Under the pieces are notes generated by a model. The model was not told the DNA's origin, did not search any database, and saw only the letters and a list, made by a program, of their open reading frames with translations. Positions 13,794 to 64,000 of a DNA stretch of 64,000 nt are shown here, one piece after another. The position numbers and the translations under genes are program-made. The stretch's first letter is position 1; each line of letters begins with the position of its first letter. The stretch is from Salminus brasiliensis (lineage: Eukaryota). The stretch covers positions 19,601,786 to 19,665,785 of the forward strand of contig NC_132885.1 of the NCBI RefSeq assembly GCF_030463535.1. Direction: 5' to 3'.

Positions 13794-13794
13794 G

Positions 13795-18465: not shown

Positions 18466-18552
18466 TTGTGATAGCAGTGTGATAGCAGTGTGATAGCAGT
18501 GTGATAGCAGTGTGATAGCAGTGTGATAGCAGTGCGATAGCAGTGCGACAGC
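18466..18552. repeat. 13-bp minisatellite (gtgatagcagtgt), about 6.5 units.
   Basis: Tandem near-perfect 13-mers. The last units carry a T to C change (gcgatagcagtgcg). Confidence 0.9.
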
Positions 18553-18884
18553 AGTGATTTTCAGAAACTCATTTGTTCAATACTAAACAGCGACTTACAC
18601 CCAGGGATCCTTATTTGGGCATGTCACTAAGTGCAAACTGATGCACAACCTCAGAGCTCTATTCATCATCCTCCATCCCAACAGATTTCCTCACCACCCT
18701 TGCCAACCTGCTTGGGCAACCCCAGGGCATATGTATTTGCTGGGCTCAGGTGACTGTTTGAAAGGGCCTGCGCTGCTCTGCCTCATTGCCAGCTGGGACA
18801 CATGGAACCATAATGTTACCACCCTTAGGCTCAGAGACACCTGCCCTATCCCAAACATTCACCCTCTCCCGTTCAATCACCCCC

Positions 18885-18895
18885 CCCCCCCCCCC

Positions 18896-18940
<45 letters not shown>

Positions 18941-18946
18941 CGCTTT
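18885..18946. repeat. Poly-C (14) followed by an (AC)~24 microsatellite.
   Basis: Perfect runs. Confidence 0.95.
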
Positions 18947-20817
18947 TACATTACTGCCCTACACAAAGGTGCCCACCTCACTGCTGTTCTGGAGCAGCGG
19001 CCTGTTGGACAGCTTCTCCCTGAGGTCATTTAGCATGCAAGGCGAAGTGTGTTCGGCATCTGCTGCTCTGAAACATGGCAAGGGCAGAGAAGGTTGTAAG
19101 GCCTGTACATAAGTTTTTAGTTTGTTTTTCTTTCAAAGATAAAGAAACAGCGATAGATAACACGCATATACTAACACATACACCTGCGCTGTCAAAGTTA
19201 ACACGTTAATAACACGTTTCAATGCAACATTTTAAAAACCTTTTTAACAATATTAACACATTTCCCCATTGTAATCTTTCAGACGGTCCACATATCTGAC
19301 CCGCTGCAAATGCACTGCAGGTATAATAGAATATTGAAAATACACATACCAGAGACAGAAATGACGTATTTTTATTCGTCCCACATTTCCAAATGTAGAA
19401 TACTGATTAAATTAATAACCATTTAGTTACTTATTCCATTATTTCATGGTCTTTAATATCCAAATACAGCAAATGTTAATACAGTATCGCTGCATTTACA
19501 TTTTTATATTCAGGAGGCTTATGATAAGTCATGAAAACACAAATGGTATGAATACACTGCTGCTTTTATGTGGGTCCCCTGGTGCATTTAGCGTTCCACT
19601 TTTGCTGAGTTTGCCAAGAAAAAGAGCAAGAAGCAGAGCAGGATTATAATGTAGACAAAAAAATTAAACAAATCCTTAAACTTACATATTTAGCAAAAGT
19701 TGTGTTTTGCCAAGTAGACAAATAACATGTAAAGCATACTTGCTTTTATGCAGAGCGGCTCACAGTTGACAGATGTATGTAATGTTAGGAGTCTCACGCA
19801 GTGACTTGTTGGTATATCATAGTGGGTGGTATTTCTAAAGCACTGCCTTGTTTACATTCATACGTGATCTGATGAAGCCCACTTGGTTTTCCTCCAGTTG
19901 TCCCTCCGACTTCACTGGTGCTCCGCTGGTGCTCTTCCTCACTAACTAAACTAATTGGTGATTACTTAGGGAGCAGCAGCTCAGCATGGTAATTCTGAGT
20001 CCTTCATTTGATGTTCTGCAGTACAAAGGCATTTAGGGTGATAGCTGCAGAATACACAATCTAACCCCTCGTTTCAGCACAGTGCTACTGGAGACGCCTC
20101 TGCCCGCTGGGGAATTATAGTTATTATCCAGCATCACATCATGAAGCTCACATTTCCCTCATATTATATCTAAATATGTGCTGAAATCTCTAACCTAATT
20201 TCCCCTGGGATGGAGGGGAGGTTCTCATTAAACTGCTTGGGTGCACGGCATCCTGGGATAGCATCCAGAAATATGTCTTTAAAAGCAGATGTAGATGAAA
20301 AGTTCACCAACCGTTATCTGCTGTCTCTTAAAGTGAAAGTTCCCTGCTTTTTCATGAGGAGGAAACACGAGGGGGGCCTGTGAACTCAGGCAGGAAAAAA
20401 ACACTTGGTTGTCTTATTTTTAGTCTGATCACAGCTTAGATGCTGCGAGAAAAACCTGTGAGTTCTCATGCAAGGAGTGTTAATCCACACTCTCATGTGG
20501 GACTGCTGCGCTGTACAGAAACAGCCCGTTCTCCTACTTCTAAGGTGTGACGTTCTCTGTAAGAAACAACTTCCCCATCCATTTAAAATAGTTTTTGCAT
20601 AATGTGTTTTTGCAGACATGGCCCTGCTTGTTAATGTTTCATTTGGCAACACATTTGGGATCAGTCCACTACTGAGTTCAGCCTCCTGCATGGTTTCTGA
20701 GAATCTCTTAAAAAGATCAAATGTTCTCAAGCTTCAAAGAGGAGGCTGCTTGTCCCAAAAAATTGAAAGTGCTGTCTTTCACTCCCTTTATATGGGAACT
20801 CGGCAGCTTTGTAAATT

Positions 20818-20818
<1 letters not shown>

Positions 20819-20880
<62 letters not shown>
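20819..20880. repeat. (CT)~31 microsatellite abutting the acceptor of the Ig exon at 20890.
   Basis: Perfect run ending about 8 nt before the AG. Confidence 0.95.
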
Positions 20881-20882
<2 letters not shown>

Positions 20883-20889
20883 ATGGTAG

Positions 20890-21312
20890 AGGTCAAATTG
20901 CAGGTGGAGGAGCTGGAGTCTAACATCACGTTACCAGAATCTGGATCCATCCGTTTGGGCTGTCGTATACCTTCCCAGTCCTCCAAAGACTCTCGCTTCT
21001 CTGTGTCGTGGTACGTGTCCCGCTCTGAGAGTGACGAGGAGGATGACCAGGAGTGTGTGTTCTCTATTGGCCATGACGCTGTGTTCGGTAACGGAAACTG
21101 CAGTCCTACAGAGGAGCCAGGTCCCAACTCACGTCTGCAGTTTGAGCGCACCGCCTCAGACCTGTACGGCTTGACCATCCAGAGAGCCAACCCTCGAGAT
21201 GCAGGCAGGTACTACTGCCACGTGGAGGAGTGGCTGCTGAACCCACGCAACGCCTGGTACTGCCTGGCCACCAACAATTCTGGAGTCACCATCGTTAATA
21301 TTTTGGAACAAG
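20890..21312 (+). CDS. Second Ig-domain exon of the same EWI-family gene, phase 1/1. It translates ...IRLGCRIPSQSSKDSRFSVSWYV...YGLTIQRANPRDAGRYYCHVEEWLLNPRNAWYCLATNNSGVTIVNILEQ.
   Basis: Frame of ORF 20721..21422. The acceptor is the end of a (CT)n tract, ...ctcttcatggtag|, and the donor is CAAG|gtatgc. It is paralogous to the exon at 14874 and shares the YGLT..R....D.G.YYC.VEEWL..P...WY.LA motif. Confidence 0.75.
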
Positions 21313-22429
21313 GTATGCCCAGTTCTTGTGTTGGTAAGGGAAAGGTTTGTGAACCCTTGCATGTAGTACTTAGTAGAGGCACTTTTTGGACAGTAGTCCC
21401 AATCAAATGCTTCTATAGATGATGAGTTGGGAGGTATTTTTGCCCTTCATTACCTACATTACCTTTTTCTCATTTATTTGGATCATTGAAGAGTTGTAGA
21501 TAATGGACTATTGCTCTGACAGTCTGCTGTTGAATTTTCTGATGCAATCTGAAATTCATTGATCCCACAGTGTAATCCATCCAGGACCTGAGGCAGCAAA
21601 GCAACTCCACACTTTATACTAGGCCTTGGTGTTACCTGCTGAAAAGGATTAGAAACAGCTGTTTTTGCTATCTAACAGTTTGAAAACCACTGGTCACAGG
21701 TCCCTTGGCAAGTCCTTAAGACAATTTATACAGTAATATCAACCCACCAGAAAAAAGCTCAGTAGTCCTATGTAGCAAGGTAGTCTTAAGAAAACGTAAG
21801 GTAGAGATACATGTATATTTCTTTGTTTATTGCTTTGTTTAGGGAGCATTATTTTTCTCAGTTGTAACCTTCTATACACAGCACTGTTGTTTGTTATTTG
21901 TCTTATGCGAGACTCCTGAACACAGGTGTCATCAACTGCAGGAGATGCCTGCAGACCCTTACCTGACACCTCTTTGCTGTCTGTTTGAGGACTGTATAGT
22001 GAGCATTGTCACTTTTTGAAGATCACACCTAGACGAATTCTGTTTGTAATCTGCCTGAATCTGCACTGATGAAGGCCCATTTCATTGCAGATCCCTTTCT
22101 AACATTTGATCAGGCTATATTTCACTTGAACAAAATTGTGTTAAGAAGAGCAGGTGCGCAGAATTGTGCAGGGCAGGTCGAACCCAGGTGTAAGTGGAAT
22201 CGAATAATTACCCTCTTTACAAGACTGGCTCCAATTACCCTCTTCTCCAGAGTTCAGTTTGCTAACAGCTCACATGCCTTTTCTGTTGGAAAGCAGTATT
22301 GTTTAAACCATTGTGTTCAGGAAATATATGGCTGTAAAGAATGTTGTGTGGGGTTTGTTAAAGGAACATTATGTAGCAAATTTAGCTTAATTTAACATAA
22401 TGCTGGGCTGTATAACCTCAACTCAATGC

Positions 22430-25110: not shown

Positions 25111-28100
25111 TTGGTATCTGTGCTCTGCAAGACTGAATAGCGAAAGTCGTCAGCAAAACGTATTGGCTTAGGGATACTGTGTAAATATGACTGCCTGGCT
25201 CCTGCCAGGGGCTTTTGGATATGTAGGCTCATGAACAGCAGTTATTCACTAAATCTACTTAAACTCTAAGACACAGCGGAAATCGTCCCTGTAGTCCTGA
25301 GGGGATATGTTTTTGACATGGTTTTGATCTGTTGCCCATTCCTTTCATTTGTATTATTTACAGCTTCAAAATGCTTAAAAGGTTCTTTACATTATCAAAT
25401 ATTTAATATGCTATCTGCAGCCTCACAAGGGAAATGCTTTAAAGGGAAATTCCAATGCAAACATATTTTTAGAGTCTTCTGCTGTGTTTGAGGTGATTGT
25501 GATACTTTAGTTAAGTGCAGTGCATAATTACACAAGAGAGTAAATGCATCTCCCCCAGGCAGGCTGCTTAGCTTGTTAGCTTGTGCAAGATTACACTGAA
25601 TTTCACCTTTGCTTGCTGAAGCAACGAAATTAATTGTACAATCATTCACGGACATGAACATACTGAAATGCCATTAAGCTCGGCCCATTTTAGATGCCAA
25701 AAGCCTACAGGAGGTGGGTCCAGTCTATTAAATTAACGTGTAAACACCGCAAAGGAATCTAAATCTTGTAATGCTGAATACTTTTTTTTAAATGCCAGCT
25801 AATTATATATATGCTTTTATCTCTTAAGGTGTGTAAAACCAACCTGGAATAATGTTTATTTCACAGCACTGCCAGATGATGTTGACAATGAGGACAGAAG
25901 GAGCAGAGCTGTTTTGTCAGAAGGAATTACAGATTGAAGCTGGATTGCTTGAACAAAGATGCTGTCTTTCAATCCAGCATTCATGATTAAATTGAATCTC
26001 TCAGCTTAGCAACTGCATTGGACTGCAGTGCAAAAGAGACTTTGGTTGCATTTCTTTCAGCATTTTTTCCATTTCCCTTTCCCATTTTTTTAAATCTTCA
26101 ATTATACTGAGCCAGATCATCTGTTCAGTTCTAAAAACCTTGTCCATGGAGTGTCACACAGCATGTTTAGTAAGAGCTACATGCAGTTTTTAAAAGGCAA
26201 TCTCCATACACACAGAAAAACAGACTTTGTTCTCCAGAAATGAAGTGCTCTGCTTTTATTTATTTCACTTTTTTGTTTTTTAATATAAATATGTTTATTT
26301 AGTTTTGGCCTGGTGTCAGCATTTACAGGTGATTGCCACAGCTGTCTATATCTGGTACTGGAAGCATTATATAAACATCACTGTAAAGGCACACAAAAAG
26401 ACAAGAGTCACAATATTGAATCCACTTGAAGTTTGTGGTGGTCTTGTTTATTTATTGAACTGTTACTGTAAAACATTTAGTTAGATTATGTGAACTTTCT
26501 AAAGTTGCATAGTAGATAGGCAGACTTTGCGCGGACCTTGGACAACAAAGCCACTGTTTCTCCTCTGTGAGTGCTGGCAGAGGGTATTATGGGAGGTGGT
26601 AGGTGAGTGATGCAGACTGTGTGTGGGCTTCGAGCGATCATCCACACAAAGCTGTCAGCTCTCTCTATTTCTCTTCTAAATCGTGTCAAACTGTATAGTG
26701 CATGATGAAGAAGGAGGCATTTTGATGTTTTGAACTTCTGAGCGTTGTGATTTGTGGCATCATGCCAGGCTGCTGCCACCTCTCCATCTCCTGCGGGTCG
26801 TGCTGTTCAACGGTTTTGTTCCCGAAGGCCACTCTGACACCCCACAGGTCCACATCTCCTCCACATCTATAATCTACAAGAAACTTGGCCAATAGTATCC
26901 TGTGATTGTATCAGTCTCTGAAATTGGCAGACCCATGCTCTGCCCACAGATGCATTCTTTTGTAGCAGCTGTTGTCGAGTTGGATAATCTATACAGAATC
27001 CCATTCAGCCTAATGCAGTTTTCTGTGTAATATTGTGCTTCATTGCTGAGCTATGTTGTTGTGGCTAATCAAAGCTAGACAGGTTGAAAAAAAAACAAAC
27101 AGCAGTGCTTTCGCTGTCATGCTAACTATAGCTTAATTACACAACACAAAAAACTACACCTGACCTGTCTCAACAGTGTGGCCTTGTACACACATACACA
27201 ATAAAATCTATTTAAAATGAATGATTCGCCAGGATCGTAAGTTCGAATCCTGGGTCATACTGTTTCGCCATCAGCAGCCAGAGCCACAGAGAGCTCAATT
27301 GGCCATGCTCTGACTGGGTGAGTAGATAATGCTCTCACCCCTCATCACTCCTATTGTGATGCTGGCCAGCCTAGGCATATGTTGGTTGACGTATCAGAGC
27401 TGGGGGTCTTGCGCATAGTGGCTGCCTAGTGATGCTGCATTGGCGGTACTCTGAAAAGAGGTGGTGGCTGAAATGTTCACATGTATCAGAGGAGGCATGT
27501 GCTTGTCGTCACCCTCCCAGTGTTGTATTATTGCAAATGATAGGGGCAGTCTATTGAGTTAATTGGCTCAGCTAAATTGGGGAGAAATTGGGGGAAAATA
27601 ATACTAATACTTTCAAATGTTAAAATGTCGACATTTGAGAAAATTGAGTGTGCTCCACGGTGGTGGTGGCTGATAGCCTAGTAGCAAGAGAGGTGAGCCT
27701 GCAAACCATTGTATCTGTGGGTATGGCACTGAAACTCCCTGCCCCATGTGTTGCAGCCCCACTGGAGACACTGTGAAGCTTCAAGGCAGGGCAAAGACTT
27801 GAATGAATGACCAGTTTCTGTTGTAAGCGGTTAGCAGTGTAAACCTTGCTGCTTGAAGTAATGGTTCAGTAAGACATCAAATGGTACTCTCAGATTTGTA
27901 GCTACACAAACTGTAAATGGATTTGTCTAGATGTTTTGCTTCTTTCGGTTTAAACTGGAACTGTGAAACTACATTTTCTAACAAGAATAGCGTTTTTTAC
28001 AACCGGCGTTGTCACAAAGTAGCTTTACAGAATCAGTTATCAGTAGGTGGACAAGAGATCAACAAGACATAAAACCTAAGACCCCCAGTGAGCAAGCCAA

Positions 28101-29400
28101 AGGCAATAATGCCAAGCAAAAACTCCCTCAGAGCTAAAAAAAAAAAAAAAACCTTGGGAGGAACCAAAACTCACAAGGGGGACCCATCCTCCTCTGGTCA
28201 GAACTATTTATAAATTATTGATCAAAGTCACCAAACCACCACAAAAGACTGTTCTACTGCTCTGGTGTGCAAAATAATCCTAATATAATCATGTAATACA
28301 ATCTTAATATATATAACAAATATAATCATCGTGACCGTAAGAGTAATGAGAGTAATGGTGATTAACTGTGGTAATAATAATAGTAGCATGTCCATGTAAA
28401 TTTAGGGATTCGTTTGGCAGGTGGCAGTCACAAACACTAGACGTCAGTGGTCACCCAAAATATTTTCTCTAAATGCATGCTTAAAGTTACAGCTAGTTTT
28501 TGTTCTTTTTATAGTTCACAATAATTAATATTGTTCTGTGAATCACATTGTCATGTGCCACCTTAATTTGGTTGGAGTGGCTTTGGTTTAGAGACAAGCC
28601 TGTGTGTGTATATTTAGTGTTACAAGCCCCAGGAACCACCAGTATGACATTATGGAAAAGATTTGGGTGACTATTGCCTTCTAATCTGCAAAATCTGGAC
28701 ACCAAACATGTAGTCAAACGCTGTGTAATGTGGACTTTCATCAAACCATTCCTTTAACTTAATTTCTCATTATGGTTGAATGGGGATTTTTGCCAGCGCT
28801 CACAACGGTAGCACATTTGTGGGCGGAACATGGGTCAGTAGTTTTCTGTTTGCTGTGCCTGTGCCTTGTAGGCTGTATTTGAGACACTATACCTATAACA
28901 ATAGCTGCACAAACTGACAGTTACACATGCCTACAGGCAACATTTATCTCCCACTAGTTTGCAATATGATGCTATCCCACTGCAGGTGTGTCTGTCCGGT
29001 GGTTTTGCCCAGGGCTGCTCTCTCGGAGCAGGAGATGGAGGGTGTGGCACTGCTGTGTGATGTTACAGTGCTGCCGCCGTTCGAGCTGTACAGAATTACT
29101 CTAAACTCGACTAGTGTTTTTGTAGATCAGCTGACCCATAACATCCTCGCAGTGTTGTAGATGTATTCTGAGGGCTGCATGTCATGGCTGTGTACTGACT
29201 CCAGATTAGCTGTGGAATTAAAATAAGATAATAAAAAAACATTGTGGTGATGTGTGTTCAGTTCAGCCAGTGATGCTTTTTTAAGTGACGTGTTTTTATG
29301 TTTTTTATTTTTTCAATTACTGAGATGTGCACTGAAATAAAAAAAGAAGGCCATAGCTTTTTTATGCTTTTCTGTGTTTTGTTGTAATGTTTTCTTTTGG

Positions 29401-52876: not shown

Positions 52877-52936
52877 GTATATTTCTAACACCCAGACACG
52901 CCCTGTGCTCTCATGATCAGTTTCAGCATGTGCAGT

Positions 52937-52940
<4 letters not shown>

Positions 52941-53033
<93 letters not shown>

Positions 53034-53034
53034 A
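52941..53034. repeat. (TG)~46 microsatellite in ttf2 intron 17, ending about 22 nt upstream of the exon 18 acceptor.
   Basis: Perfect run ending ...gtgtgtgtttacag|ACG. Confidence 0.95.
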
Positions 53035-53058
53035 CAGACGCTGGATCAATCAGAGCTG

Positions 53059-53208: not shown

Positions 53209-54136
53209 GTGAGCAAGAATTTTCAAATTTGTCATATTGTCCTCAAAAGTAAAAAGAGGGGACCACAAAGTGGAGATTACACAGAACAAATAAACTGAAT
53301 TTTTACCATCTGCAATTTTTTTTTTGTAATATTATTTTTATTTTTTATTTTTATTTTTTTTTGGCCATGATTAGAAAGTCATACTTATAAAGAAGTGATT
53401 CAGTGTGTCTTTAGGAATAATTCTTAAGCCACTAAGCTAGAGTGGATTCAGAAAGTATTGAGAGCCTTTTGCTTGCTGCACACTTGTTGTGTTGTGGATT
53501 TGATTCTAACTGGATTTTTACCCATCAGTCTACACTCACTCATAATGACCAAGTGTAACCATGTTTATAGAGAATTAAAAAAACAAAGAATTAGAATGGA
53601 AAACTGAATTCTCTTACAGTAGTATTCAGAGGCTTTATTTAATTCTTTGTAGAAGACCCTTAGTCAGCAGTTGCAAGTCCTCTTGCAAACCTGGATCTGG
53701 GCAATTTACCTTTTTCATGGCAGATTCTCTCAAGCCCTGTCGGATTGGATGGCAAGAGCCTGTGAACTGCCATCTTAAAGTCTCTCCACAGATGTTCAAT
53801 AGGGTTCTGCGACCAAAATCTTACTGCCACCTCTTTCAAGATAGTACAAGTACTGATTTCATTTTAAAGCAAGCCTTTTCAGGTAGTAGTTCATTCTGTC
53901 AAAAAAAGAAAATAAGACATGACACACAAAAACACCACTTCCTAGAGATGTGAAAGTCAGACAAAGAAATTAATGAGTGCAAACATTCTCATGACATGTT
54001 TTTTATTAATAGATTTAATCACAGATCTTTTTTTTTTTTTAAACTTCAAAACTTCTTATCTATAAAGATCTATAAAACTACCATCCCCTACTGCAGAGTT
54101 TTATTTGACGTTTCTGTTGTGTTTCTTTTTGTACAG

Positions 54137-54189
54137 ATTTCAGCCATTCTTTCAGAGTTACGAGAGATCCGTAAGAAAAATCAGAAAAG
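54137..54189 (+). CDS. ttf2: ttf2 exon 19 (ISAILSELREIRKKNQK.).
   Basis: Frame of ORF 53996..54379. The acceptor is tttttgtacag| and the donor is AAAG|gtacac. It matches human ISSLLAELEAIQRNSASQK. Confidence 0.8.
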
Positions 54190-54304
54190 GTACACCTCTC
54201 TGTTTATATACATTGTGGTTGGAGGGTGGGGGCTGAATTCAGACGTTAACTGCATGTTTAAAATTGCTTTCTTAGAAGTTTGGTTGTCTGGTGTCTGTTG
54301 GCAG

Positions 54305-54458
54305 TGTGATTGTGTCCCAGTGGACAAGTATGCTGCAGATTGTAGCAGTTCATTTGAAGAAGATGGGTGTGCACTTTGAGGTTATAGATGGCAAAGTCAA
54401 CCCAAAACGACGCATGGACCTGGTGGAGGAATTTAACACCAACCCTAAAGGACCACAG
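54305..54458 (+). CDS. ttf2: ttf2 exon 20 ([52 protein letters not shown]), the start of the helicase C-terminal domain.
   Basis: Frame of ORF 54291..54500. The acceptor is tctgttggcag| and the donor is ACAG|gtattt. It matches human [45 protein letters not shown]...GPQ. Confidence 0.9.
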
Positions 54459-54860
54459 GTATTTAGATACACCAGGAGGAATGAAGCTTCAGCGTTCTAG
54501 ACTGCATGATTCAAAAGTATATGGACACCCCTTGTAATTAGTGGATTTAGCTATTTTGGCCACATCTGTTGCCACTTTTAAACTACCTCTGGAAATAACA
54601 GAGGTAAAGAACTGTTCCTTGGGAGCTTCATAGACTTGGTTTTCATGGCTAAGTAGTAGTCCAAGATCACATATGCAGTATGCTAATGCTCATTGTTTTG
54701 GAATGAGATGTTCAGTAAGTACATATGGGTGTGAGATTCAGTTGGACCATGTTTAACTGCAATTGTGAGTAACTAAACAATAAATACCATTTACCTACTG
54801 ATAAGTTGATTAACTCTAAATTAATATGTGATTAAAAAGGAAACTGAATTTGTTCTACAG

Positions 54861-54943
54861 GTAATGCTGGTGTCTTTATGTGCTGGTGGAGTGGGCATTA
54901 ATCTGACTGGTGGAAACCATCTTTTCCTCATAGACATGCACTG
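54861..54943 (+). CDS. ttf2: ttf2 exon 21 ([27 protein letters not shown] + W partial).
   Basis: The acceptor is tgttctacag| and the donor is ACTG|gtgagc. It matches human [28 protein letters not shown]. Confidence 0.9.
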
Positions 54944-55082
54944 GTGAGCCCTTTAATAATGCAACTAGATCTCTAATACTTTAGCTGCAATTAGGATATT
55001 TTGATAATAAATTACTTAATTACTTTACAATGGATGCTTTGAAATAGATGTGGATATGTCTAAGCTGAAGTTGGATTTACAG

Positions 55083-55157
55083 GAACCCAGCACTGGAGGA
55101 CCAGGCCTGTGATAGAATCTATAGAGTGGGTCAGCGCCTGGACGTTACTATTCACAG
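55083..55157 (+). CDS. ttf2: ttf2 exon 22 ([24 protein letters not shown] + R partial), carrying SNF2 motif VI.
   Basis: The acceptor is tggatttacag| and the donor is ACAG|gtgagg. It matches human [25 protein letters not shown]. Confidence 0.9.
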
Positions 55158-55584
55158 GTGAGGGGTTGGCAGTAGTGAATAAGTAGTTAAGTTAAGTGCA
55201 GAGCACCACTATTATGAAGTACAAAAGCTAGTTGAGTGCTAATAGCACCTCCTTGTGAATAATCTTCAGCTTGCTTAAACGTTTTCACATCTTAACCAAA
55301 CAACTACATTAACCTTAACCATGCATTTCACATCCTGAAGAGAAGACTGAAGCATTGTAAAATGGCTTTATACAGTTATTGCAAGAAAGGGACACATGCC
55401 CAAATATCTGTATCTATATGTTTGTGTATTTTTGCTCAGCTAAACTTTGTGTGGTTTACCATCACAGGTGCCATGATCTAAGTTTATTTTTCAATCTCAA
55501 ACCCAAAAGCTTTTATTGTATAGCAAAACTCGAACTTGCTGTTCCAAAGCATTAATCGTCATCCTTTGGCTCTTTACTCTGTAG

Positions 55585-55729
55585 GTTTGTGTGTGAGGGC
55601 ACAGTTGAGGACAAGATCTCCTCTCTGCAGGAGAAAAAAAAAGAGCTTGCCCAGAAAGTCCTGTCTGGAACTGGCTCCTCCTTCACCAAACTCTCCCTTG
55701 CAGATCTTAGGGTCATCTTCGGTGTGTAA
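55585..55729 (+). CDS. ttf2: ttf2 exon 23, the terminal exon ([47 protein letters not shown]).
   Basis: The acceptor is ctttactctgtag| and the stop is TAA. It matches the human C-terminus [48 protein letters not shown]. The summed CDS is 3477 nt, giving 1158 codons, against about 1160 aa for human TTF2. Confidence 0.9.
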
Positions 55730-56300
55730 TGGAGATGCGTGAGCATACATTTAGAGGCTTAATATCCATTCCATACAACAATTAAAACATTCATGTAGTT
55801 CAAATTCTGTATTATGCATTGTAAACAGTTAAATACTAAAGTGGTTTCATACTGAGGGACTGCATGGAACTCATTTAATGAAAAATGCCTTATGTTAAAC
55901 TGCTGTGGCGTGTAATTGTGGTTACTTTGCCAAGGCTGGTGTTAACTAGACAACAGCACTCTATTTGATCATTACTATGGTAATGATAGTAATTCTTTTG
56001 ATCCAGAAGGGGTGCATGAATTCTGGTTGTTTACACTATACTTCACTGATGTATCCTTCTTCTTCTGTGTTTATTGGTGATGTATAAGGCTGAACAAATG
56101 GCTGTTTGCAAATACCTTACAGCTTTTTAAATACTGCTGGATAAAAGTGTCTAATAGTTAGAGCTGCTACACATCATAATGAAACTTTGCCTGATAATCT
56201 GCCATAATTATTTTTGTTGTTTGTTTGATTGTGTATTTTTTTTTGTGTGTGTATTTTTAAGGCACTTCAAACTTTGATTTTATAAATAAAACAAGTACTT
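55730..56300 (+). other. ttf2: ttf2 3' UTR with a candidate polyadenylation signal AATAAA near 56284-56292.
   Basis: It follows the TAA stop. An ATAAATAAAAC motif precedes a T/GT-rich stretch. The extent is uncertain. Confidence 0.35.
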
Positions 56301-56699
56301 GACACATGAGGCAAGACATCTTTATTTGCATTTTCTAATGAAAACAATAGAATAAAAAGCTGAACAACACAAACTAAGCACAATCTGAAAGAATGTTACA
56401 GGCGACATGTTAAACAGTCCAATTAAGCCTGGACAAAACACATATGAAAAGATCCCTTCATGCAGGAACAGGTTGTGGCTAAAGTGACTTTGCTGAAATA
56501 TCAGTGCAGCCTCAGTGTATTATTCAGAAATTACGCTCCTTAACTGAAATGGGAATGCTGTACAAAGCTAGTTTTGTTACCTTTCATTCACCACTTTCCA
56601 TAAAAATTTCCATAATATCTAAACCTAGCTTTGAATTTGAGTAAATCCATCTTTCAGAACTTTGCTGGGTCTTTTGCTTCCTCTTTGGCCAATTCTTTA

Positions 56700-57290
56700 A
56701 GTTCCAAGAAAGTTATCTGTCTCCTCCAGTACTTACTCCTCATAGACAGCTTTGTTAATAATTTTGTATCCTTTGCTTTTTGAATAGCACAGACCTAGTG
56801 TCCACAAAACAAATACCAGCCACAAGACAGCCAGTCCAGTGACCTTAAAACAGTATGTTTGGAAACAGGAAACAAATTTTTTGTCAGAGTAAAGCTAATA
56901 GTAGCTAAATTTGTGATGGTCTTTATTAATAGAATACTTACACGTCATAAACTGTTAGTATGTGTGATTGATGCAAATTCTTCACTTGTGGGCTCCTTCT
57001 TACAAGCTGGCTGCTCACTCCTAACCGTTATGTCTGATGATGTTGTTTCCAAGCACACCCAGCACTCTCTATCCAGCAATACTGGATTATCTGAATCTTC
57101 AAACAAATGTTGTCCGCCACAACAAGAATCAGGAATAAAATGAGGAAGGGTACAGTTATGTAGATCCCACAAAACCACTTGTTTTCCTCAGGGTCGCATA
57201 TACAGACAAACTCCACTTTGAAAATGTACTCAAAGGTAGCAAAAAACAAAGACACCGCCAGCCAATGCCAGCAGTTTTGACAGTGCATCA
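56700..57290 (-). pseudogene. CALHM-like copy A, a disrupted paralogue of copy B, with exon-1-like sequence at 56945-57290 and exon-2-like sequence at about 56700-56880.
   Basis: Two overlapping - strand ORFs (57028..57288 and 56945..57178) together cover the copy-B homologue but in different frames, so there is a frameshift between them. An in-frame TGA lies 2 codons before the conserved GTAAGT donor. The exon-2 homologue (VTGLAVLWLVFVLWTLGLCYSKSKGYKIINKAVYEE*) contains several stop codons. Confidence 0.55.
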
Positions 57291-57654
57291 GTGGAGAGTT
57301 CTGGATGGCTCATTGCTGCTGCTTAGACTGCAACCTGCCTATGAAATTGCTCACCCAGAGTGTGTTGGACACTTAGTGCTAATGGAAAAAAACGGGTGTA
57401 GAGGGAGGAGTCAGAACACAAGCTGCCTTCGCTACCTGTGTTTGGTCTTGGCCTGTTGGTGATCTTATTGTAAGGTAGATTTTTCATGGCTTTGTGGAAG
57501 CAATTTATGTTTTATGGAGATTATAAAAGTTAGTGCTTGTGTGTGAGGGAATCATTTTCAAGTGTATTAGCTTTTCTGAGGATGAGTGGTAAAATAAGCT
57601 GAGAGCTGATATGGAAAATGAATTTCAGAAATAATAACAGTGTTGTGGTACAAT

Positions 57655-57800
57655 GACGTTCATCATGTATCCATTGTTTAACACGGTTTCCATGATATTG
57701 CTTAGTGGTTGCTATTTTGTTGCTTAGTGGTTGCTTTGGTATTGCCAGTTGGTTACTATGGAATCCCAGGTGGTTGCTAGATGGTTGATTAGTGCTTACT
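57655..57800. repeat. Imperfect minisatellite of about 22 bp (ttgcttagtggttgctatt.gt, about 6 units).
   Basis: Repeated ggttgct.t...ttgc..gtggtt blocks. Confidence 0.7.
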
Positions 57801-59506
57801 AGATGAGTGTAATAGTATTGCAAGATGACTATTATGGTATATGTATACAGGTGGTTTTTATGGCGTTGCAAAGTGATATATGATATAGGTGGGTTTTTTG
57901 CTGGGTGGTTGCTATGGTGTTTCGTCTCCTACAAACAATGAAAAAAGCTTACAACTAAGCCCAAAACATCTATCTAACATCTATCTAGCTGGAACATCAA
58001 GTAATTACTGTGTGTGACCATATCCAAATAAACTTGCATATTATGATTTACATTTAGAAAAAAGAACTGACTGAAAAAGTCGCCTCAAACTTTGACTACC
58101 AGGACATAGATATACATCCAGGCCAGAATGATGTGTATTGACTCAAACTGCCTCCTTGTGGTTGAAGATAATATAGCGTGCTACTTATCTTGCCACAATT
58201 TGTCAGTGATTTTCTTTTCTCTTTCTCCTACCAGGGGTCAGGCGTCATTCACACATCATTTATTGATCTGTCTGAAAATCACTCATGGATACGTGTTGCT
58301 GGGTTGTTGTGGGTGAAGCTTAATGCAAGTGGGAAACTCTTTCAAACACAACGGCTCATAAGCAAAAAAACTAGATCTTCTCCTGCTGTATCTTTATAGC
58401 TGGATTGTGCAGCTCTGTGCATGAGCTGACAGCAGTTAGTAGTTTCTCTGCATTGCCATGCACTGGTGTCTGCTGTTTGTCTACACATACGTACAAAATT
58501 GTTCATGCAAATGTCACCTTAAGGCCTCAGTATATTTCCAGCAACACAAAGCTAACAAGGGCTGCTAAAAGTATACTGTAAGCAGTTGGTCTTTTTTGTT
58601 TGTTTGTTTGTTTGGTTTTTTTTGCAAGAATGTGTGTGTTAATAAAACCAGGCACTGGTATTGATTTGTAGGTTGTAGGCCATAGTTTATAAGTATTACT
58701 TTCAGATTCACTCACATGCATAACATCTGTTTTATGAACTGTCAAAATTATTTATTTATTAGTTATATATATTATATGTGTTTACCACACACACATTTAC
58801 TATAGCAGAATAGTACAAAGCTCAACTTGTGTGTGGTTCAGAAGGCCTCTCGTGCCCCAGTGTCTCTTGCTTCTTTCTGAGTACTGGATTGGCGCCCTCC
58901 TTCGTTTTGCCACAAGGAAGTGTGGTGTGTGAACGCTGCATAGGGGGTGATAAGCACCCGTCTGGCTGGTCAAAGCTGGTGCACCATTCTAAATGTTAAA
59001 CAGCACATTTTTGTCCTTTCTTCTACAACACCTCAGCAATGGAAAAATGTCTAGAAGCCTGAGAACTGAAATTGTGTTTTGTGAAATTTATGCAGAAAAT
59101 ATATTTTAGTGTTTGTTTAGGCTCAGGCTTGAGGGCCTTAATTTGATGTGATATGGATGTTAGTGAATTAGTGAGTCACTTGTATATGGTTTGATTTTAT
59201 AAACAATTTAAAAAAACTTGTAAATAAATGTAAATAATGGAAATAAATGTACCAAATGCAAACTGTAAAAACTTAAGAAACAAACATAGTTGAAGCAGTT
59301 AAAGCAGTTAAAGAACATTCAGGAAAACAGCCTAAACAATCAAATTAGGCCCAGACCAAATGCAAATTACATGAAGAGACATGTAGAGGCACTGAAATCC
59401 AGGTAGGATGGTTGAAAAAGGACACTCCAGTAGATGGTAGCAATACAGTGTTTCTAGACTGGCATTACACAGTTAGCTTTCATTCACCACCTCAGAATAA
59501 CATCAT

Positions 59507-59746
59507 CTAAACAGTATGAATGACTGGTTGCAGCTCGCATGTTATTTTTTTCAGTTGGTCCTTTACAGCGGACGTTGCTCTCTCTCTGGCCAGTTTTGTG
59601 ATTTCTTCTTGCAGAAGGTTCTCAGTCTCATTGAGCACATAGTCATCATAAAGAGACATATACATCTTGTGGCTTTTGAGTTTTGACCAGCATATGCCTA
59701 TTGTCCAAAGCATTAATACCAGAAACAGGAGACCCAATCCAAAGCC
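59507..59746 (-). CDS. CALHM-like copy B, coding exon 2 (GFGLGLLFLVLMLWTIGICWSKLKSHKMYMSLYDDYVLNETENLLQEEITKLARERATSAVKDQLKKITCELQPVIHTV*).
   Basis: ORF 59507..59770 on the - strand. The acceptor is ttttttaaag|GGC in phase 0, joining exon 1. It encodes a TM4-like helix plus a C-terminal helix as in CALHM proteins. The predicted protein is only about 229 aa. Confidence 0.5.
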   Translation of the reverse strand, partial: GFGLGLLFLVLMLWTIGICWSKLKSHKMYMSLYDDYVLNETENLLQEEITKLARERATSAVKDQLKKITCELQPVIHTV

Positions 59747-59900
59747 CTTTAAAAAAAGTATGAACAACACAATCTTAAGTTACCTAAGATGATATTAGTG
59801 AATAAGTGACTCTTTACAAGTGATACACTGCTGTACAGTCACATATAAATAATGATTCTTTGATGGATGATTTTTATTGGTTAAATATGAATTTACTTAC

Positions 59901-60350
59901 ACGTGAAATGTTTTTCCAGTCTATGATGGATGCAAATTCATCTCTGCTGGGCTTCTCTTTACAAGCTGGTTGCTCCCTCCTGACTGTTATGTTCCGTGAT
60001 GTTGTTTGAATGCAGACCAGCCAGTCTCCGTCCATCAGTGCTGTGACGATCCATAATGAGCCCACAGTCAAAACTCTCATGGCACGCTTATACACTGCAT
60101 AGGACTTACAGGAACATAAAACCTCAAAAAAGGTGTTGTCCACAATGACGAAAATTAGGGAAAAAATTAGGATTGGGGAAAGTATGTATAATAAGCAAAA
60201 CCATATGTTTGTTTTAGGGTCGCATGGACAAAGAAATTCCACTTTGAAAATGTACTGGAAGATAACAAAAAAGAAGAAAATGCCAAATGTACCACCAGCT
60301 GATGTCAAAAGTTTTATTAGCATGTCGGTGGAGAAGTCTGGATGTTTCAT
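59901..60350 (-). CDS. CALHM-like (calcium homeostasis modulator family) gene, copy B, coding exon 1 of 150 codons: MKHPDFSTDMLIKLLTSAGG...FQYIFKVEFLCPCDPKTNIWFCLLYILSPILIFSLIFVIVDN...LWIVTALMDGDWLVCIQTTSRNITVRREQPACKEKPSRDEFASIIDWKNISR.
   Basis: ORF 59874..60350 on the - strand. It carries the F.F.CPC.P motif followed by a TM2-like hydrophobic helix, and a LMDGDWLVC segment resembling CALHM1 ...TLLDGKCFLC.../...DGDWLL... The donor CGT|GTAAGT lies on the - strand at + strand position 59895-59900. Confidence 0.6.
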
Positions 60351-60479
60351 TGCTATTGCTCAGTCTGCAGCCTGCCTTGTGTTTTGTGAAAGTGGTGGTT
60401 GTGGAAAGGCAGCCTTGAGTATGAAGAAGCAACAACAGCAAAAGCCAGCTGATGTAAAAAAGGGAGGAGTCAGAACTGT

Positions 60480-60640
60480 AGGTTTGTGCATGAGACAAGG
60501 ACAGTCGAGGATAAGATCTCCTCTCTGCAGGAAAGCAAAAAGGAGCTGACTCCTCCTTCACCAAACTCACCCTCACAGATCTCATGACAGAGTCATCTTT
60601 TTGCCTAGATGTGTGAGCATACTGAGGGTCAGAGCATAGC
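60480..60640 (+). pseudogene. Degenerate duplicate of the ttf2 terminal exon and its flanks.
   Basis: The sequence ctgtaggtttgtgcatgagacaaggacagtcgaggataagatctcctctctgcaggaaagcaaaaaggagctgactcctccttcaccaaactcaccctcacagatctcatgaca... is about 80-85% identical to 55578-55735 (ttf2 exon 23), with an internal deletion of about 25 nt. Confidence 0.6.
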
Positions 60641-63284
60641 CAGCCCTTACGCTGCTTACACCACCCAACCTTCCCCATATAAACACTTTACCAGTGTCTC
60701 TGACAGCTCTCGCTCTGTGGCCGGGTGTTTATGCTGCAAGTTCTCCTCTGTGACTCCACCTTTTTTCTGTCACAGTACCCAAAATATATGACTTAAAATA
60801 TAAACACAATAATTTGGGATAAATCTAACAAGAAAACCCTTCACACTGTCAGAAAACAACATTACAAGGATGCTGTGAGCAGGAGTTATTGAGGGAGACA
60901 TTTTAGCCCCTCTGAACTTTGAAGAGAACTCATCCCCCTCCCAAACCTACACATATGCCTCGAGTACATATTTATAATAACACAGGTCCCCAAAAATAAA
61001 AGAAGAGGCCAGTCAACATCCAAGCTCTAAGCATATCACTATAGGCTCTGTGTGGTACTCAATAGCCCACCCCAGGCTACAAGAACTAGACAAGGCATAG
61101 AGCCATGCAGGTCACAGGAATCGAACAGGAACCAGATAAACCCAATGTGTTGGAACTGGATCGACCTGGAAAGCTGGAACTGGAGTGAGAAACTGGCACA
61201 GGAACTGGCGATCCATGTAGCTGGCACAGAGTGGGGAACTGGAACCGGAGGGACCCAGCTAACAGAAACTGGAGCTTTTTTAAAGCAGGAACAGGAACTG
61301 AAATGCTCTGAATGAGGTAGCTAATCCCGTACTCTCCTGTTCTTACACAGTGAAAGCAGACATTAACCCCTCATGTATTATCCCACAGTACAGTAAATAT
61401 AAACATGTATATGCTGTGATTTTGTATGTATAAAAATCATCAAAATGTCTTTTAATAAATCGATTATAAAATTGAATGAATAGAAATGCAATTTTCTTGT
61501 AAAGAAAAGGTCGGTTACACTTTTCCTAGAACCATCTACAAGCCTCTAACATTGATTGGGAGAATTGCTGTTTCAGTGTTACTTTCAATGAACAGCTTAA
61601 TGTTAAATGAAGAACCTAAATGAAGTACAGGATCCAGGTTCTGTACTGAAATTTGGATCATTATGGATAAGAATATCAATCTGATTGATTATACAGTTTT
61701 GCATGTATGCAAATGTGGCATTTGCAAGTTTGATAAGAGAGAATAAAGTTACTGTTACCAATTAACATTGGAGGTGAAGCTTGACTGGCTAGTGAAACAT
61801 GTATAGATTAAGGCCATGATTTCATTTACTGATGCCTTAACCTTTCCAACATGTTCTGTTTATGAACACCAGTGCTCTTTGCAAGGCTGTGATTTTTATA
61901 ATCAACATGATCAGTCAAATTTGTTTTGCCGTGATTATGCATTATCTAAATTAGAGAAAGTATACGTGAACAAGCCATAATAATAATAATAATAATATTA
62001 ATAACCCCACTTAATGTTTTTTCAGTTTTTCAGTCATCACAGAAGCCTGCGACATCCCTCAAACACCAACCAAATTAGCTGCTTTACATCCAGCATTGCA
62101 GTCCAAATCAACTGTCTGAACAGCAGGATTTCTTTTCTGAAATTGTTTGTTGCTGTTGCTGTCAACGGCTCTGGCATCCAACGGCTCTTGCATTTAGCGC
62201 CGCAAAAATTTATCTCTAATATCTAATTCTCTTTGTTTGATTCAGCAGCAATACCTGACTTTATATGATCGCAAATTGTGTAGTTTACATCAAGGCTAGA
62301 AACTGAGCTAGCTGCAGCTAAACCTTTCTAGCGTTTTCTCTTGTGCAGAGGCTGCAATGGCTTAAGTCAGCGTTGGATCTGACAATCCAATTTGGGGATC
62401 TTTTTAAGCAGCTCATGGTTACACTGGTCCTTTATTTGAATTGGGCAGAATTCCCGTTGAATAGTTAACCACTGTTTGTGACCCAATTAGTAGAGCTCAA
62501 TTAAATTAGTTGGTTTAGCCTACAGCTGTTAAAAGGCAGCACATCATCCTCATGCAATCTGCCATGATTCAGTAAATTGAAATATGAGCCATTTTCTCAT
62601 TTCACAGCAGCGAGAGAGAGAGAGAGGGTGCAGGAGGGGCAGATACGGTACTGGAAATGGGCCTGTACTCACCAGTTTACAGTACTGGCATTTCTACATT
62701 TGACTCTTGGTAGAACTTTCTTCTGCTCTCGCCATATCAGGTACTGTGTGATTCATAATGATGCTATAGAAACTGTTTTACCCAGGGGGCACCACACACT
62801 GTTACTGTTCTCTTTAGGGTTGACAGGCATAGTGAGTGCACTGAACTGTGGCGGTTCAGTACATATACCTGCACAGTTACACTCCTAAAACTTACATATT
62901 TGTTTGAACTTGGATTCTGCAGTTGGTATAAATCTGCAAATATCCTTCATATATCTGCTCTGAGCTTCTTGGATTTTCACATTGTAAAGTGCGTTGAGTG
63001 CTGCCAAACAAACTCTTTTTATGTGGACACGGAGATGCTACAAGCTACAGTCGATCACGATCAGTAAGAGAAAGTTACCAAACCTTGGTTTTGGTAAAAA
63101 GTTCCATTCACTCATTCTGCTCCAGAAAAGAATAGTTCAAAGAGATCATGAAAAGTGCTGCACTCCGACTGAACCTTAATGTTAGGAGAACCAGTTGTTG
63201 TCAGTAGAGTCGAAAATTTTATTTGAAAAGATAATGAAAGGTAACATCATCTGCCATCGTCTGACGCTAGTAGTTCTGTAAGCA

Positions 63285-63440
63285 TGTTAGTGCTGAAGTT
63301 TCATTTCTGCTGCTCGGGCTGTAGCCTGCTTCATGCTTTGTGGTATTGGCTTTGTTGTGTGGCAGTCCAGAATATGAAGGCACGACACCAGAAAACCCCT
63401 GCTTAGGTATAAAAGCTACAGAGGAAGGAGTCAGAACTGT
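63285..63440. repeat. Partial third copy of the CALHM-upstream/ttf2-tail duplication unit.
   Basis: It is similar to 60330-60500 and 57240-57430 (...agcctgc.t...aggaaggagtcagaactgt...). No CALHM exon is recognisable next to it. Confidence 0.4.
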
Positions 63441-64000
63441 GCTTTTGCACCCAATAACTATGCTATACTAAATTAAAACATTTCAATTCAAATATCTTTG
63501 AAAAGTGCTTGACACAAAGCAGCTGTACAGGAATCCAGGTCAAAAGCTCTTTTGAACAACCAAGTGGCAACAATGGCAAGAAAAAACTCCCTCAGATCAA
63601 GATGAAGAAACCTTGAGAGGAACCAAGACTCAAAAAGGGAACCCAACCGTCTCTGGTCGACACCAGATAGCAGAACAAAAAGTCTAGTTACAAGAATGAA
63701 AGCAGATGAAAAGTAGAGTAATGCCTGGATAAAGAGAAATAATGAAGATATAGGACTAATGTGACAGAAAGACATCCCTATTGAGGATCCCACTACGTGT
63801 CTACTTGCATACCTATCAGGTTACTTGCTGTTAAGTACTGTATACATGAAAACTGGTCTGTTATACCTCAGTGACGGCTGTGTTCATGTATGTTATAAGC
63901 TGACTGAATATAGCTTTATGTCCTAGCACATTACATACCTCTGCACCTTATCCCCACCATACACATTCAGTACAGAGTGTGTCTGTGTTACAATGTCCTG

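What the first reader, a model, noticed from the sequence alone, without database searches (positions are those of the whole stretch)
56700..63440. Lineage-specific tandem segmental duplication downstream of ttf2 carrying CALHM-like genes and a copied ttf2 terminal exon
Three partially overlapping copies of a unit are arranged head-to-tail. The unit is [CALHM-like exon 2 - exon 1 on the - strand - about 150 bp upstream block - ttf2-last-exon-like block]. Copy A is about 56700-57440, copy B is 59500-60640, and a truncated copy C is 63285-63440. The genuine ttf2 exon 23 (55585-55729) sits just upstream of copy A. The array therefore looks like repeated tandem duplication of a segment spanning the ttf2 3' end and its convergently transcribed CALHM-like neighbour. 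In mammals, as I recall, CALHM genes map at 10q24 and 6q22, away from TTF2 at 1p13. A CALHM-like cluster tail-to-tail with ttf2 would then be unusual and possibly teleost-specific.
Basis: partly seen in the sequence, partly recalled or inferred. Interest (0 to 1): 0.6.

Follow-up and report, generated by a model that had tools for sequence, protein, structure and literature searches.

The report
Decaying CALHM-like gene duplicates beside ttf2
Downstream of the fish gene ttf2 lies a small, old tandem array of a CALHM-type channel gene (one intact copy, one pseudogene, one stub) with a dead copy of ttf2's last exon marking a duplication junction; this is ordinary gene birth and death, not a new kind of element.

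Summary
The repeats are real, with corrected limits. Copy A is 56243-57421, copy B 59157-60480 and copy C 63184-63448, all on the - strand. A ttf2 last-exon copy lies at 60476-60656 (+) and begins exactly where B's promoter block ends.

Only B is intact. It has two exons with GT/AG splice sites and encodes 229 aa. It passes Pfam Ca_hom_mod (42.7 bits, cut-off 25). Its AlphaFold model (pLDDT 86) matches only CALHM structures, CALHM6 best.

A is a pseudogene with several frameshifts, about 66 bp deleted and in-frame stops. C is a promoter plus about 50 decayed codons. The ttf2-like block is demonstrable only beside B. It keeps the intron's last 6 bp, so it was copied as DNA and is not a retrocopy.

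The CALHM-like/ttf2 tail-to-tail pair is not peculiar to this genome. It also occurs in Danio aesculapii, Labeo rohita and Colossoma macropomum. All 30 named relatives I sampled were teleost proteins, mostly labelled "uncharacterized".

The copies are old (57-76% identical) and about as far from each other as from characiform orthologues. "Lineage-specific" is therefore unproven.

Verdict: a real but ordinary tandem duplication with decay. Low interest.

The parts
55585..55729 (+). Genuine ttf2 terminal coding exon ([47 protein letters not shown]). It is the source of the copied block.
   Evidence: tblastn self-hit. 96-98% aa identity to the last exon of Danio, Labeo and Megalops ttf2. A concatenated set of exons hits proteins named transcription termination factor 2. 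SNF2-rel_dom at 128.7 bits; Helicase_C at 21.2 bits, just under its 23.5 cut-off.
55730..56290 (+). ttf2 3'UTR up to the AATAAA at about 56285-56290. It abuts the 3' end of copy A on the other strand.
   Evidence: Read from the sequence. 56250-56286 is 89% identical to Colossoma L001 11781-11745, downstream of its CALHM-like gene.
56243..57421 (-). Copy A, a CALHM-like pseudogene. Exon-2-like part is about 56600-56850, exon-1-like part 56942-57313 (ATG at 57313), promoter block 57314-57421.
   Evidence: nhmmer vs B, E 6.5e-72. Alignment to the B CDS shows deletions of 11, 1, 1, 21, 3, 42 and 5 bp and insertions of 1, 2 and 3 bp in exon 1, in-frame stops, and further indels plus a stop (YEE*) in exon 2. 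Pfam 17.4 bits, below the cut-off of 25.
59157..60480 (-). Copy B, an intact CALHM-like gene. 3'UTR-like part is 59157-59506, exon 2 is 59507-59746 (including the stop), intron 59747-59900 (GT..AG), exon 1 is 59901-60350 (ATG at 60350), conserved promoter block 60351-60480.
   Evidence: 229-aa ORF. Pfam PF14798 42.7 bits, E 4.8e-11, profile positions 32-246 of 252. AF2 pLDDT 86. The Foldseek top 10 are all CALHM. 49-50% aa identity to the Colossoma and Prochilodus proteins, with the intron at the corresponding position. dN/dS 0.51-0.65.
60476..60656 (+). ttf2 last-exon pseudo-copy. It holds the last 6 bp of the intron with its AG, the exon with an internal deletion of about 25 bp plus other indels, and about 60 bp of 3'UTR. 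It starts at the end of B's promoter block, which is the duplication junction.
   Evidence: blastn 82% and 91% blocks. nhmmer E 1e-18. Alignments. The reading frame is broken.
63184..63448 (-). Copy C, a decayed 5' stub. It holds the promoter block (63305-63441), the ATG at 63304, and about 50 codon-equivalents with 8-, 17- and 11-bp deletions. The CPC motif is lost and the rest of the gene is missing.
   Evidence: nhmmer vs B, E 1.7e-21. blastn vs Colossoma L001 10059-9873, 67%. Alignments.
57422..59156 (.). A-B spacer. It has no detectable homology to the unit and contains a 22-bp tandem repeat at 57685-57761.
60657..63183 (.). Spacer between the ttf2 pseudo-exon and stub C. No CALHM or ttf2 homology was detected here, so the body of copy C has been deleted or replaced.

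Best explanation
An ancestral convergent gene pair, ttf2 (+) and a short CALHM6-like channel gene (-), underwent DNA-level tandem duplication. The duplicated segment ran from the acceptor site of the ttf2 last exon to the distal end of the CALHM-like promoter block.

Shown: joining the end of the unit to its start produced the junction now seen at 60476-60480, where the promoter motif ...GGAGTCAGAAC is followed by TGTAGGTTTGTG..., the intron end and exon start of ttf2.

Inferred: at least one further duplication or unequal crossover gave three CALHM-like copies.

Shown: the copies then followed the usual birth-and-death course.
- B kept an open two-exon reading frame.
- A accumulated frameshifts, deletions and stops.
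- C lost everything but its promoter and first codons.
- The ttf2 exon copy has no upstream exons and decayed as a functionless by-product.

Inferred: B is under purifying selection, though only weakly, and encodes a four-helix CALHM-fold membrane subunit. By analogy with solved CALHM proteins it would assemble into a large-pore oligomer. Oligomerisation, channel activity, expression and timing are not shown.
For: - Copies are in the same orientation with significant similarity.
- The junction is exact. B's promoter block is alignable to Colossoma, Prochilodus and Astyanax up to 60477, and ttf2 homology starts at 60476.
- The pseudo-exon retains the intron's CTGTAG and has no exon-22 sequence or poly(A) tail, so it was copied as genomic DNA.
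- B is intact, whereas A has at least 10 indels and stops and C has 3 deletions within about 115 bp.
- B passes Pfam Ca_hom_mod and has a CALHM fold. Four cysteines (C41, C43, C113, C130) plus P59 and W100 are invariant or nearly invariant in a 45-sequence alignment. These correspond to the CALHM shared pattern described in PMC13183375.
- dN/dS is 0.5-0.65 against the characiform orthologues.
- The same gene pair occurs in Danio, Labeo and Colossoma.
- Comparable independent duplications exist. Prochilodus has two 95%-identical copies. Danio has a partial ttf2 copy beyond its CALHM-like gene.
Against: - A single tandem duplication predicts the ttf2-like block after the copy nearest ttf2, which is A. 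It follows B instead, so extra steps must be assumed.
- The copies are separated by 1.7 and 2.5 kb of unrelated DNA of unknown origin.
- The trees do not resolve A+B as a clade (bootstrap 16%), so the number, order and date of the events are open.
- dN/dS of 0.5-0.65 shows only weak constraint, and no expression data exist for B.
Confidence: 0.8

Rival explanations
1. The duplications are ancient. They predate the split between this fish's lineage and the Characiformes, and the characiform genomes later lost copies. On this view the array is not lineage-specific.
For: A, B, Colossoma/Prochilodus and Astyanax exon-1 sequences are about equidistant (JC 0.34-0.44), and A+B has only 16% bootstrap support. 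In the promoter and 5' region, each window copy is at least as close to Colossoma as to the other window copies. Polarised ttf2-exon sites give 0 derived states shared by the real and pseudo exon.
Against: No ttf2-like block was found within 10 kb of the Colossoma, Prochilodus or Astyanax genes (weak matches only). Pseudogenes evolve fast, which can by itself produce a star-like tree. The pseudo-exon scores higher against the window's own ttf2 exon (63 bits) than against Colossoma's (45-47 bits).
Confidence: 0.3
2. The ttf2-like block arrived separately from the CALHM-like duplications, as a retrocopy or a fragment captured by a transposon. It merely happens to lie next to copy B.
For: The block is found only once, and the unrelated DNA that follows it (60657-63183) could be an insertion.
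Against: It keeps 6 bp of intron with the splice acceptor, has no upstream-exon sequence and no poly(A) tail. It lies 4.9 kb from its source, in the same orientation, and abuts exactly the end of the duplicated CALHM unit. No transposon-like repeat or inverted repeat flanks it.
Confidence: 0.04
3. The array is an assembly artefact, or the similarity is due to chance or low complexity.
For: None beyond the general possibility. One low-complexity match (56211-56257 vs 58590-58644) is of this kind.
Against: E-values are 1e-18 to 1e-72 within a 10-kb search space. The copies are only 57-79% identical with many private indels, unlike mis-assembled haplotypes. Each copy aligns independently to characiform orthologues.
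Confidence: 0.01

Closest known systems
Characiform orthologues: Colossoma macropomum LOC118801414 (P0001, 248 aa), Prochilodus magdalenae NFI96_015376/015374 (P0002, P0003), and Astyanax mexicanus 'CALHM2-like' (P0004)
   Same: 49-50% aa identity to B over 95-98% of its length. Two-exon structure with the intron at the corresponding position, and an alignable promoter block. The Colossoma gene is also tail-to-tail with ttf2. Prochilodus also has tandem copies.
   Different: No ttf2 pseudo-exon was found upstream of these genes. The Colossoma locus shows one short-type copy plus a 301-aa CALHM gene. The Prochilodus duplicates are young (95% identical), whereas the window's copies are old and mostly dead.
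Human CALHM6/FAM26F, and CALHM4 and CALHM5 (PDB 6ytv, 6ytk, 7d60)
   Same: Same fold: four transmembrane helices plus a C-terminal helix. Foldseek probability 1.00, TM-score 0.57-0.68. Same CPC motif and cysteine pattern.
   Different: Only 15-21% identity. B is about 229 aa against about 315 aa. The mammalian genes lie at 6q22, not beside TTF2 (own knowledge). Orthology to any single mammalian CALHM was not established, and channel activity is untested.
Danio aesculapii ttf2/CALHM-like locus (L007) and the Labeo rohita locus (L008)
   Same: A CALHM-like gene convergent with ttf2. In Danio, a partial ttf2 copy (73-79% identical, about 2.7 kb) lies beyond the CALHM-like gene, the same layout as ttf2 - CALHM - ttf2' in the window.
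   Different: The Danio copy covers internal ttf2 exons and introns, not the last exon, so its breakpoints differ and the event was probably independent. The cypriniform proteins carry long C-terminal extensions (500 to 1229 aa annotated) and share only about 33-41% identity with B.
Generic tandem segmental duplication with birth-and-death evolution of vertebrate multigene families
   Same: Head-to-tail copies, a recognisable end-to-start junction, one survivor and decayed siblings, and a truncated piece of the neighbouring gene carried along.
   Different: Nothing unusual. The spacers of unrelated DNA and the position of the junction after the second copy imply more than one event.

Membership tests
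CALHM / Ca_hom_mod (Pfam PF14798), copy B protein | Match to the family HMM above Pfam's gathering score | tested here: met
   42.7 bits against a cut-off of 25, E 4.8e-11, profile positions 32-246 of 252. Sequence hits to CALHM2, CALHM1 and CALHM6 chains in the PDB are weak (E 0.007-0.9).
CALHM / Ca_hom_mod (Pfam PF14798), copy B protein | CALHM fold: four transmembrane helices followed by a C-terminal helix | tested here: met
   AF2 model pLDDT 86, pTM 0.70. Foldseek against the PDB: ranks 1-10 are all CALHM6, 5, 2/4, 4, 2 or 1 (E 2e-4 to 0.2, TM up to 0.68), and the next hits have E above 2.
CALHM / Ca_hom_mod (Pfam PF14798), copy B protein | Shared-pattern residues: the CxC motif after S1, two further extracellular cysteines (disulfide pairs), and conserved F/I/P in the S1-S2 linker plus W (PMC13183375) | tested here: met
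   B has F39, C41-P-C43, I56, P59, W100, C113 and C130. C41, C43 and C130 are nearly invariant, and P59, W100 and C113 invariant, in a 45-sequence alignment. C41/C43 and the linker residues align to CALHM2 C46/C48; the equivalence of W100, C113 and C130 to CALHM2 W117, C130 and C162 is inferred, because that alignment stops at residue 84. CALHM2 Y56 is F51 in B.
CALHM / Ca_hom_mod (Pfam PF14798), copy B protein | Assembly into a large-pore oligomeric channel, with ATP or ion conductance | not testable with these tools
   Needs expression, cryo-EM and electrophysiology.
CALHM / Ca_hom_mod, copy A | Open reading frame and HMM match above cut-off | tested here: not met
   17.4 bits, below 25, even after manual frame correction. 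At least 10 indels and in-frame stops. It is a pseudogene.
Orthologue of one particular mammalian CALHM (1-6) | Reciprocal closest relationship and conserved synteny | tested here: inconclusive
   The best structural hit is CALHM6, at 21% identity. Some relatives are auto-named CALHM6-like and one CALHM2-like. Synteny is with the ttf2 block, not with the mammalian CALHM loci. No full phylogeny was made.
Tandem segmental duplication | Copies in the same orientation, and a junction joining the unit's end to the unit's start | tested here: met
   All copies are on the - strand. The junction of promoter-block end and ttf2 intron/exon start is at 60476-60480.
Tandem segmental duplication | Complete units lying directly adjacent, each with all parts | tested here: not met
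   The ttf2-like block is shown only after B. Spacers of 1.7 and 2.5 kb have no homology. C lacks most of the gene. This is compatible with decay and later insertions or deletions, but it is not a clean array.
Processed retrocopy (for the ttf2-like block) | No intron sequence, continuity with the upstream exon, poly(A) tail | tested here: not met
   The block keeps the intron's CTGTAG. It is preceded by the CALHM promoter block, not by exon 22. There is no poly(A) tail.
TTF2 (identity of the + strand gene) | SNF2-type ATPase and helicase-C domains, with best hits named TTF2 | tested here: met
   SNF2-rel_dom 128.7 bits; Helicase_C 21.2 bits, just under its 23.5 cut-off. The top hits are all named transcription termination factor 2. 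The last exon is 96-98% identical to Danio, Labeo and Megalops TTF2. The N-terminal GRF zinc finger was not looked for in the window.

The most novel reading that the evidence does not exclude
The short (about 230-aa) CALHM-like genes beside ttf2 may belong to a teleost-restricted, fast-evolving branch of the CALHM family. This branch would turn over repeatedly by local duplication, with independent events in the window species, Prochilodus and Danio, sometimes dragging pieces of ttf2 along. That pattern is typical of immune-type multigene families. It would make this an uncharacterised group of large-pore channel subunits worth naming and testing.
Probability: 0.4. Interest if true: 0.35.

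Novelty: new member of a known kind. Interest (0 to 1): 0.2.

Why it matters
The result mainly matters for annotation.
- It separates one probably functional CALHM-like gene from a pseudogene, a gene stub and a ttf2 pseudo-exon. Any of these could otherwise be mis-called as genes or as an alternative ttf2 exon.
- It shows that a CALHM-like gene convergent with ttf2 is a conserved feature of otophysan fish.
- It shows that the gene belongs to a large teleost family. All 30 named members I looked up are teleost proteins, most of them labelled "uncharacterized", and the family is prone to local duplication.

No new mechanism or new kind of element is involved.

Tried and rejected
- Searched for further ttf2-like or CALHM-like remnants in the two spacers and after copies A and C, using blastn with lenient scoring, nhmmer, tblastn, and Smith-Waterman with mono- and dinucleotide shuffles. 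There was nothing after A. After C there was only a weak 31-nt match (3 of 500 shuffles as good).
- Searched for a ttf2 pseudo-exon upstream of the characiform genes. Only short, non-collinear matches at chance level were found.
- Tried to date the duplications with an exon-1 NJ tree and bootstrap, promoter/5' pairwise identities, and polarised substitutions in the ttf2 exon with cyprinid outgroups. All were unresolved.
- Tried to identify the species from the long, fast-evolving ttf2 exon. There was no close hit, so the window species or its annotation is not in the protein collection.
- Rfam scan of 55000-64000: no RNA family.
- The bacterial promoter/terminator scan is irrelevant for a eukaryote and was ignored.
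- A microhomology origin of the junction was considered. Colossoma has GAACTCTGTGG upstream of its gene, and the ttf2 intron ends ACTCTGTAGG. This is kept only as a speculation.
- ttf2 adjacency outside Otophysi was checked. Megalops cyprinoides has a PRY/SPRY gene, not a CALHM-like gene, within 10 kb downstream of ttf2. The Salmo trutta and medaka family members sampled lie at other loci. The Sparus look-up failed.

Full report
**Setting**

The window is fish nuclear DNA. On the + strand, exons between about 46163 and 55729 encode a SNF2-type ATPase: SNF2-rel_dom scores 128.7 bits, and Helicase_C 21.2 bits, just under its 23.5 cut-off. A concatenate of these exons hits proteins named transcription termination factor 2 from many vertebrates. 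The last coding exon is 55585-55729. It is 96-98% identical at the protein level to the last exon of Danio aesculapii, Labeo rohita and Megalops cyprinoides ttf2. An AATAAA lies at about 56285-56290. Further upstream, at 14825-15364 and 20712-21419, are V-set Ig exons with an EEWL motif. From my own knowledge, this resembles the EWI-type Ig genes that flank TTF2 on human 1p13.

**Checking the observation**

A self-comparison of 54000-64000 gave the following same-strand matches (blastn; the repeat finder; nhmmer):

| Pair | Coordinates | nhmmer E |
|---|---|---|
| A vs B | 56243-57421 vs 59157-60480 | 6.5e-72 |
| B vs C | 60194-60487 vs 63184-63448 | 1.7e-21 |
| ttf2 exon and start of 3'UTR vs block after B | 55579-55783 vs 60476-60657 | 1e-18 |

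The limits differ somewhat from those given.
- The two spacers, 57422-59156 and 60657-63183, match nothing in the unit, elsewhere in the window or in the fetched loci.
- The ttf2-like block is clear only after copy B.
- After A, the best match is a 13-mer that 34 of 500 dinucleotide shuffles equal.
- After C, a 31-nt match to the ttf2 3'UTR (63453-63482 vs 55761-55791) is reached by 3 of 500 shuffles. That is a hint, not a finding.

**The three copies**

Copy B is an intact gene on the - strand.
- Exon 1 is 60350-59901 and exon 2 is 59746-59507. The intron has GTAAGT...AG ends.
- The product is 229 aa. It matches Pfam Ca_hom_mod at 42.7 bits (cut-off 25) over profile positions 32-246 of 252.
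- An AlphaFold2 model built on a 45-sequence alignment has mean pLDDT 86.
- In the PDB its ten best Foldseek matches are all CALHM6, CALHM5, CALHM2/4, CALHM4, CALHM2 or CALHM1. The next hits have E above 2.
- B carries the CPC motif, two further conserved cysteines, and the conserved F, I, P and W positions. A recent survey lists these as the pattern shared by all CALHMs (PMC13183375).

Copy A aligns to the B coding sequence at 75% identity in exon 1 and 69% in exon 2.
- It has deletions of 11, 1, 1, 21, 3, 42 and 5 bp and small insertions in exon 1.
- It has in-frame stops, and further indels plus a stop in exon 2.
- It is a pseudogene.

Copy C keeps the promoter block, the ATG at 63304, and about 50 codon-equivalents.
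- It has 8-, 17- and 11-bp deletions and has lost the CPC motif.
- The rest of the gene is absent.

**The junction**

A block of about 110-140 bp upstream of the ATG is alignable among A, B, C and the orthologues in Colossoma, Prochilodus and Astyanax. At its distal end is the conserved motif GTTCTGACTCCTCCC, read in the CALHM sense.

In B, this block ends at 60477-60480. Homology to ttf2 starts at 60476, with CTGTAG|GTTTGTG: the last six intron bases, the acceptor AG and the exon start. The copy runs through the exon with an internal deletion of about 25 bp and other indels, so the frame is broken. It continues about 60 bp into the 3'UTR.

It retains intron sequence and has no exon-22 sequence or poly(A) tail. 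It was therefore copied as genomic DNA, not through an mRNA. An end-of-unit to start-of-unit junction is the signature of a tandem duplication. Here the duplicated segment ran from the ttf2 exon-23 acceptor to the end of the CALHM promoter block.

**Comparison with other fish**

- A word-indexed protein search found only characiform relatives (Colossoma, Prochilodus, Astyanax) at about 50% identity.
- A full HMM search found 267 representatives with E of 1e-3 or better. All 30 named ones I looked up are teleost proteins, from Scleropages and Megalops to percomorphs. Most are labelled "uncharacterized", and a few are labelled CALHM6-like.
- In Colossoma, the gene lies 7 kb from the ttf2 last exon, on the opposite strand and tail-to-tail.
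- In Danio aesculapii, a CALHM-like gene is 2.8 kb from a convergent GRF/SNF2/helicase gene whose last exon is 96% identical to the window's.
- In Labeo rohita, the gene convergent with ttf2 starts with a CALHM-like N-terminus.
- In Megalops atlanticus, two family members sit next to a gene with RING, B-box and filamin domains, a trim45-like architecture.
- In Scleropages, a family member sits next to a long V-set Ig gene.
- In Megalops cyprinoides, no CALHM-like sequence lies within 10 kb downstream of ttf2.

The convergent pair is therefore at least as old as Otophysi, and the family is an old resident of this chromosomal neighbourhood. It is not a peculiarity of the window's genome.

**Other duplications at this locus**

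Local duplication here is recurrent. Prochilodus has two copies 95% identical, with a DDE_3 transposase gene nearby. Danio aesculapii has a copy of about 2.7 kb, 73-79% identical, of internal ttf2 exons and introns on the far side of its CALHM-like gene. That is the same layout as in the window, but with different breakpoints.

**Age and order of events**

- Exon-1 distances among A, B, Colossoma/Prochilodus and Astyanax are all 0.34-0.44, and an A+B clade has 16% bootstrap support.
- In the promoter and 5' region, C is 57% identical to A, 67% to B and 70% to Colossoma.
- The ttf2 pseudo-exon is 79% identical to the real exon. It scores higher against the window's own exon than against Colossoma's.
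- Sites polarised with cyprinid outgroups show no derived state shared by the real and pseudo exon.
- No pseudo-exon was found near the characiform genes.

I conclude that the duplications are old. Whether they postdate the split from Characiformes is open.

A single duplication would place the ttf2-like block after the copy nearest ttf2, which is A. It follows B, so at least two events are needed, or a three-unit array in which the blocks after A and C have been erased.

**Function**

- B's intact frame stands among two heavily damaged siblings. Together with its conserved family residues, conserved intron position, conserved promoter block and dN/dS of 0.51-0.65, this argues that it is a functional, fast-evolving gene.
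- By homology, it encodes a four-helix membrane subunit of the CALHM type that would form a large-pore oligomer. This is inferred, not shown.
- A, C and the ttf2 block are relics.

**Verdict**

The interpretation needs three qualifications: only one gene is alive, the ttf2 block occurs once, and neither the adjacency nor the family is lineage-specific. This is a normal example of tandem duplication and decay in a vertebrate genome. Interest is low.

Noticed in passing
window 14825-15364 and 20712-21419 (+): V-set immunoglobulin exons with an EEWL motif lie upstream of ttf2 (Pfam V-set 29-35 bits). They look like an EWI-type Ig gene (ptgfrn/cd101-like). From my own knowledge, that would match the human 1p13 gene order around TTF2.
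   Followed up: partly
L007 (Danio aesculapii) 1357-3070 and 7203-8115 vs 16603-19281: A partial copy of internal ttf2 exons and introns, 73-79% identical, lies on the far side of the Danio CALHM-like gene. It appears to be an independent duplication of the same gene pair with different breakpoints.
   Followed up: partly
L002 (Prochilodus magdalenae) 10001-10916 and 18163-19085; 8215-8724: Two CALHM-like genes are about 95% identical in the promoter/5' region, with a DDE_3 transposase gene just upstream of the first. This looks like a recent local duplication in another lineage.
   Followed up: no
window 57403-57418, 60462-60477 and 63423-63438; L001 about 9876-9890: The motif GGGAGGAGTCAGAAC (written on the + strand) lies about 115-130 nt upstream of the ATG. 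It is nearly invariant in A, B, C and three characiform species and is followed by a T/A-rich stretch. It is probably a core-promoter or transcription-factor site. The factor was not identified.
   Followed up: no
window 63553-63658, 28089-28199 and 2015-2086: An interspersed repeat (71-77% identical copies) lies just beyond copy C. It is probably a transposable-element fragment.
   Followed up: no
window 57685-57761: A 22-bp tandem repeat (3.5 copies, 75% matches) lies in the A-B spacer.
   Followed up: no
L001 (Colossoma) 18022-18148: The Colossoma ttf2 last exon matches in two reading frames around its poly-A run, and it carries many private substitutions. This is either an assembly error or a real change at the C-terminus.
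   Followed up: no
P0008 (Danio aesculapii, 500 aa), L008 gene 24523-31952 (Labeo, 1229 aa), P0017 (Hypomesus, 492 aa): Members of this CALHM-like family in the two cypriniforms and in the smelt Hypomesus carry long C-terminal extensions. The two named ones have misleading automatic names (samkC kinase, golgin-like).
   Followed up: no
window 520-740, 10870-10970, 13780-13860, 18900-18960, 52900-53050: Long (CA/GT)n and (TA)n microsatellites, one of them inside a ttf2 intron. They were seen only as poly-His/Thr/Cys/Val open frames in the six-frame listing.
   Followed up: no
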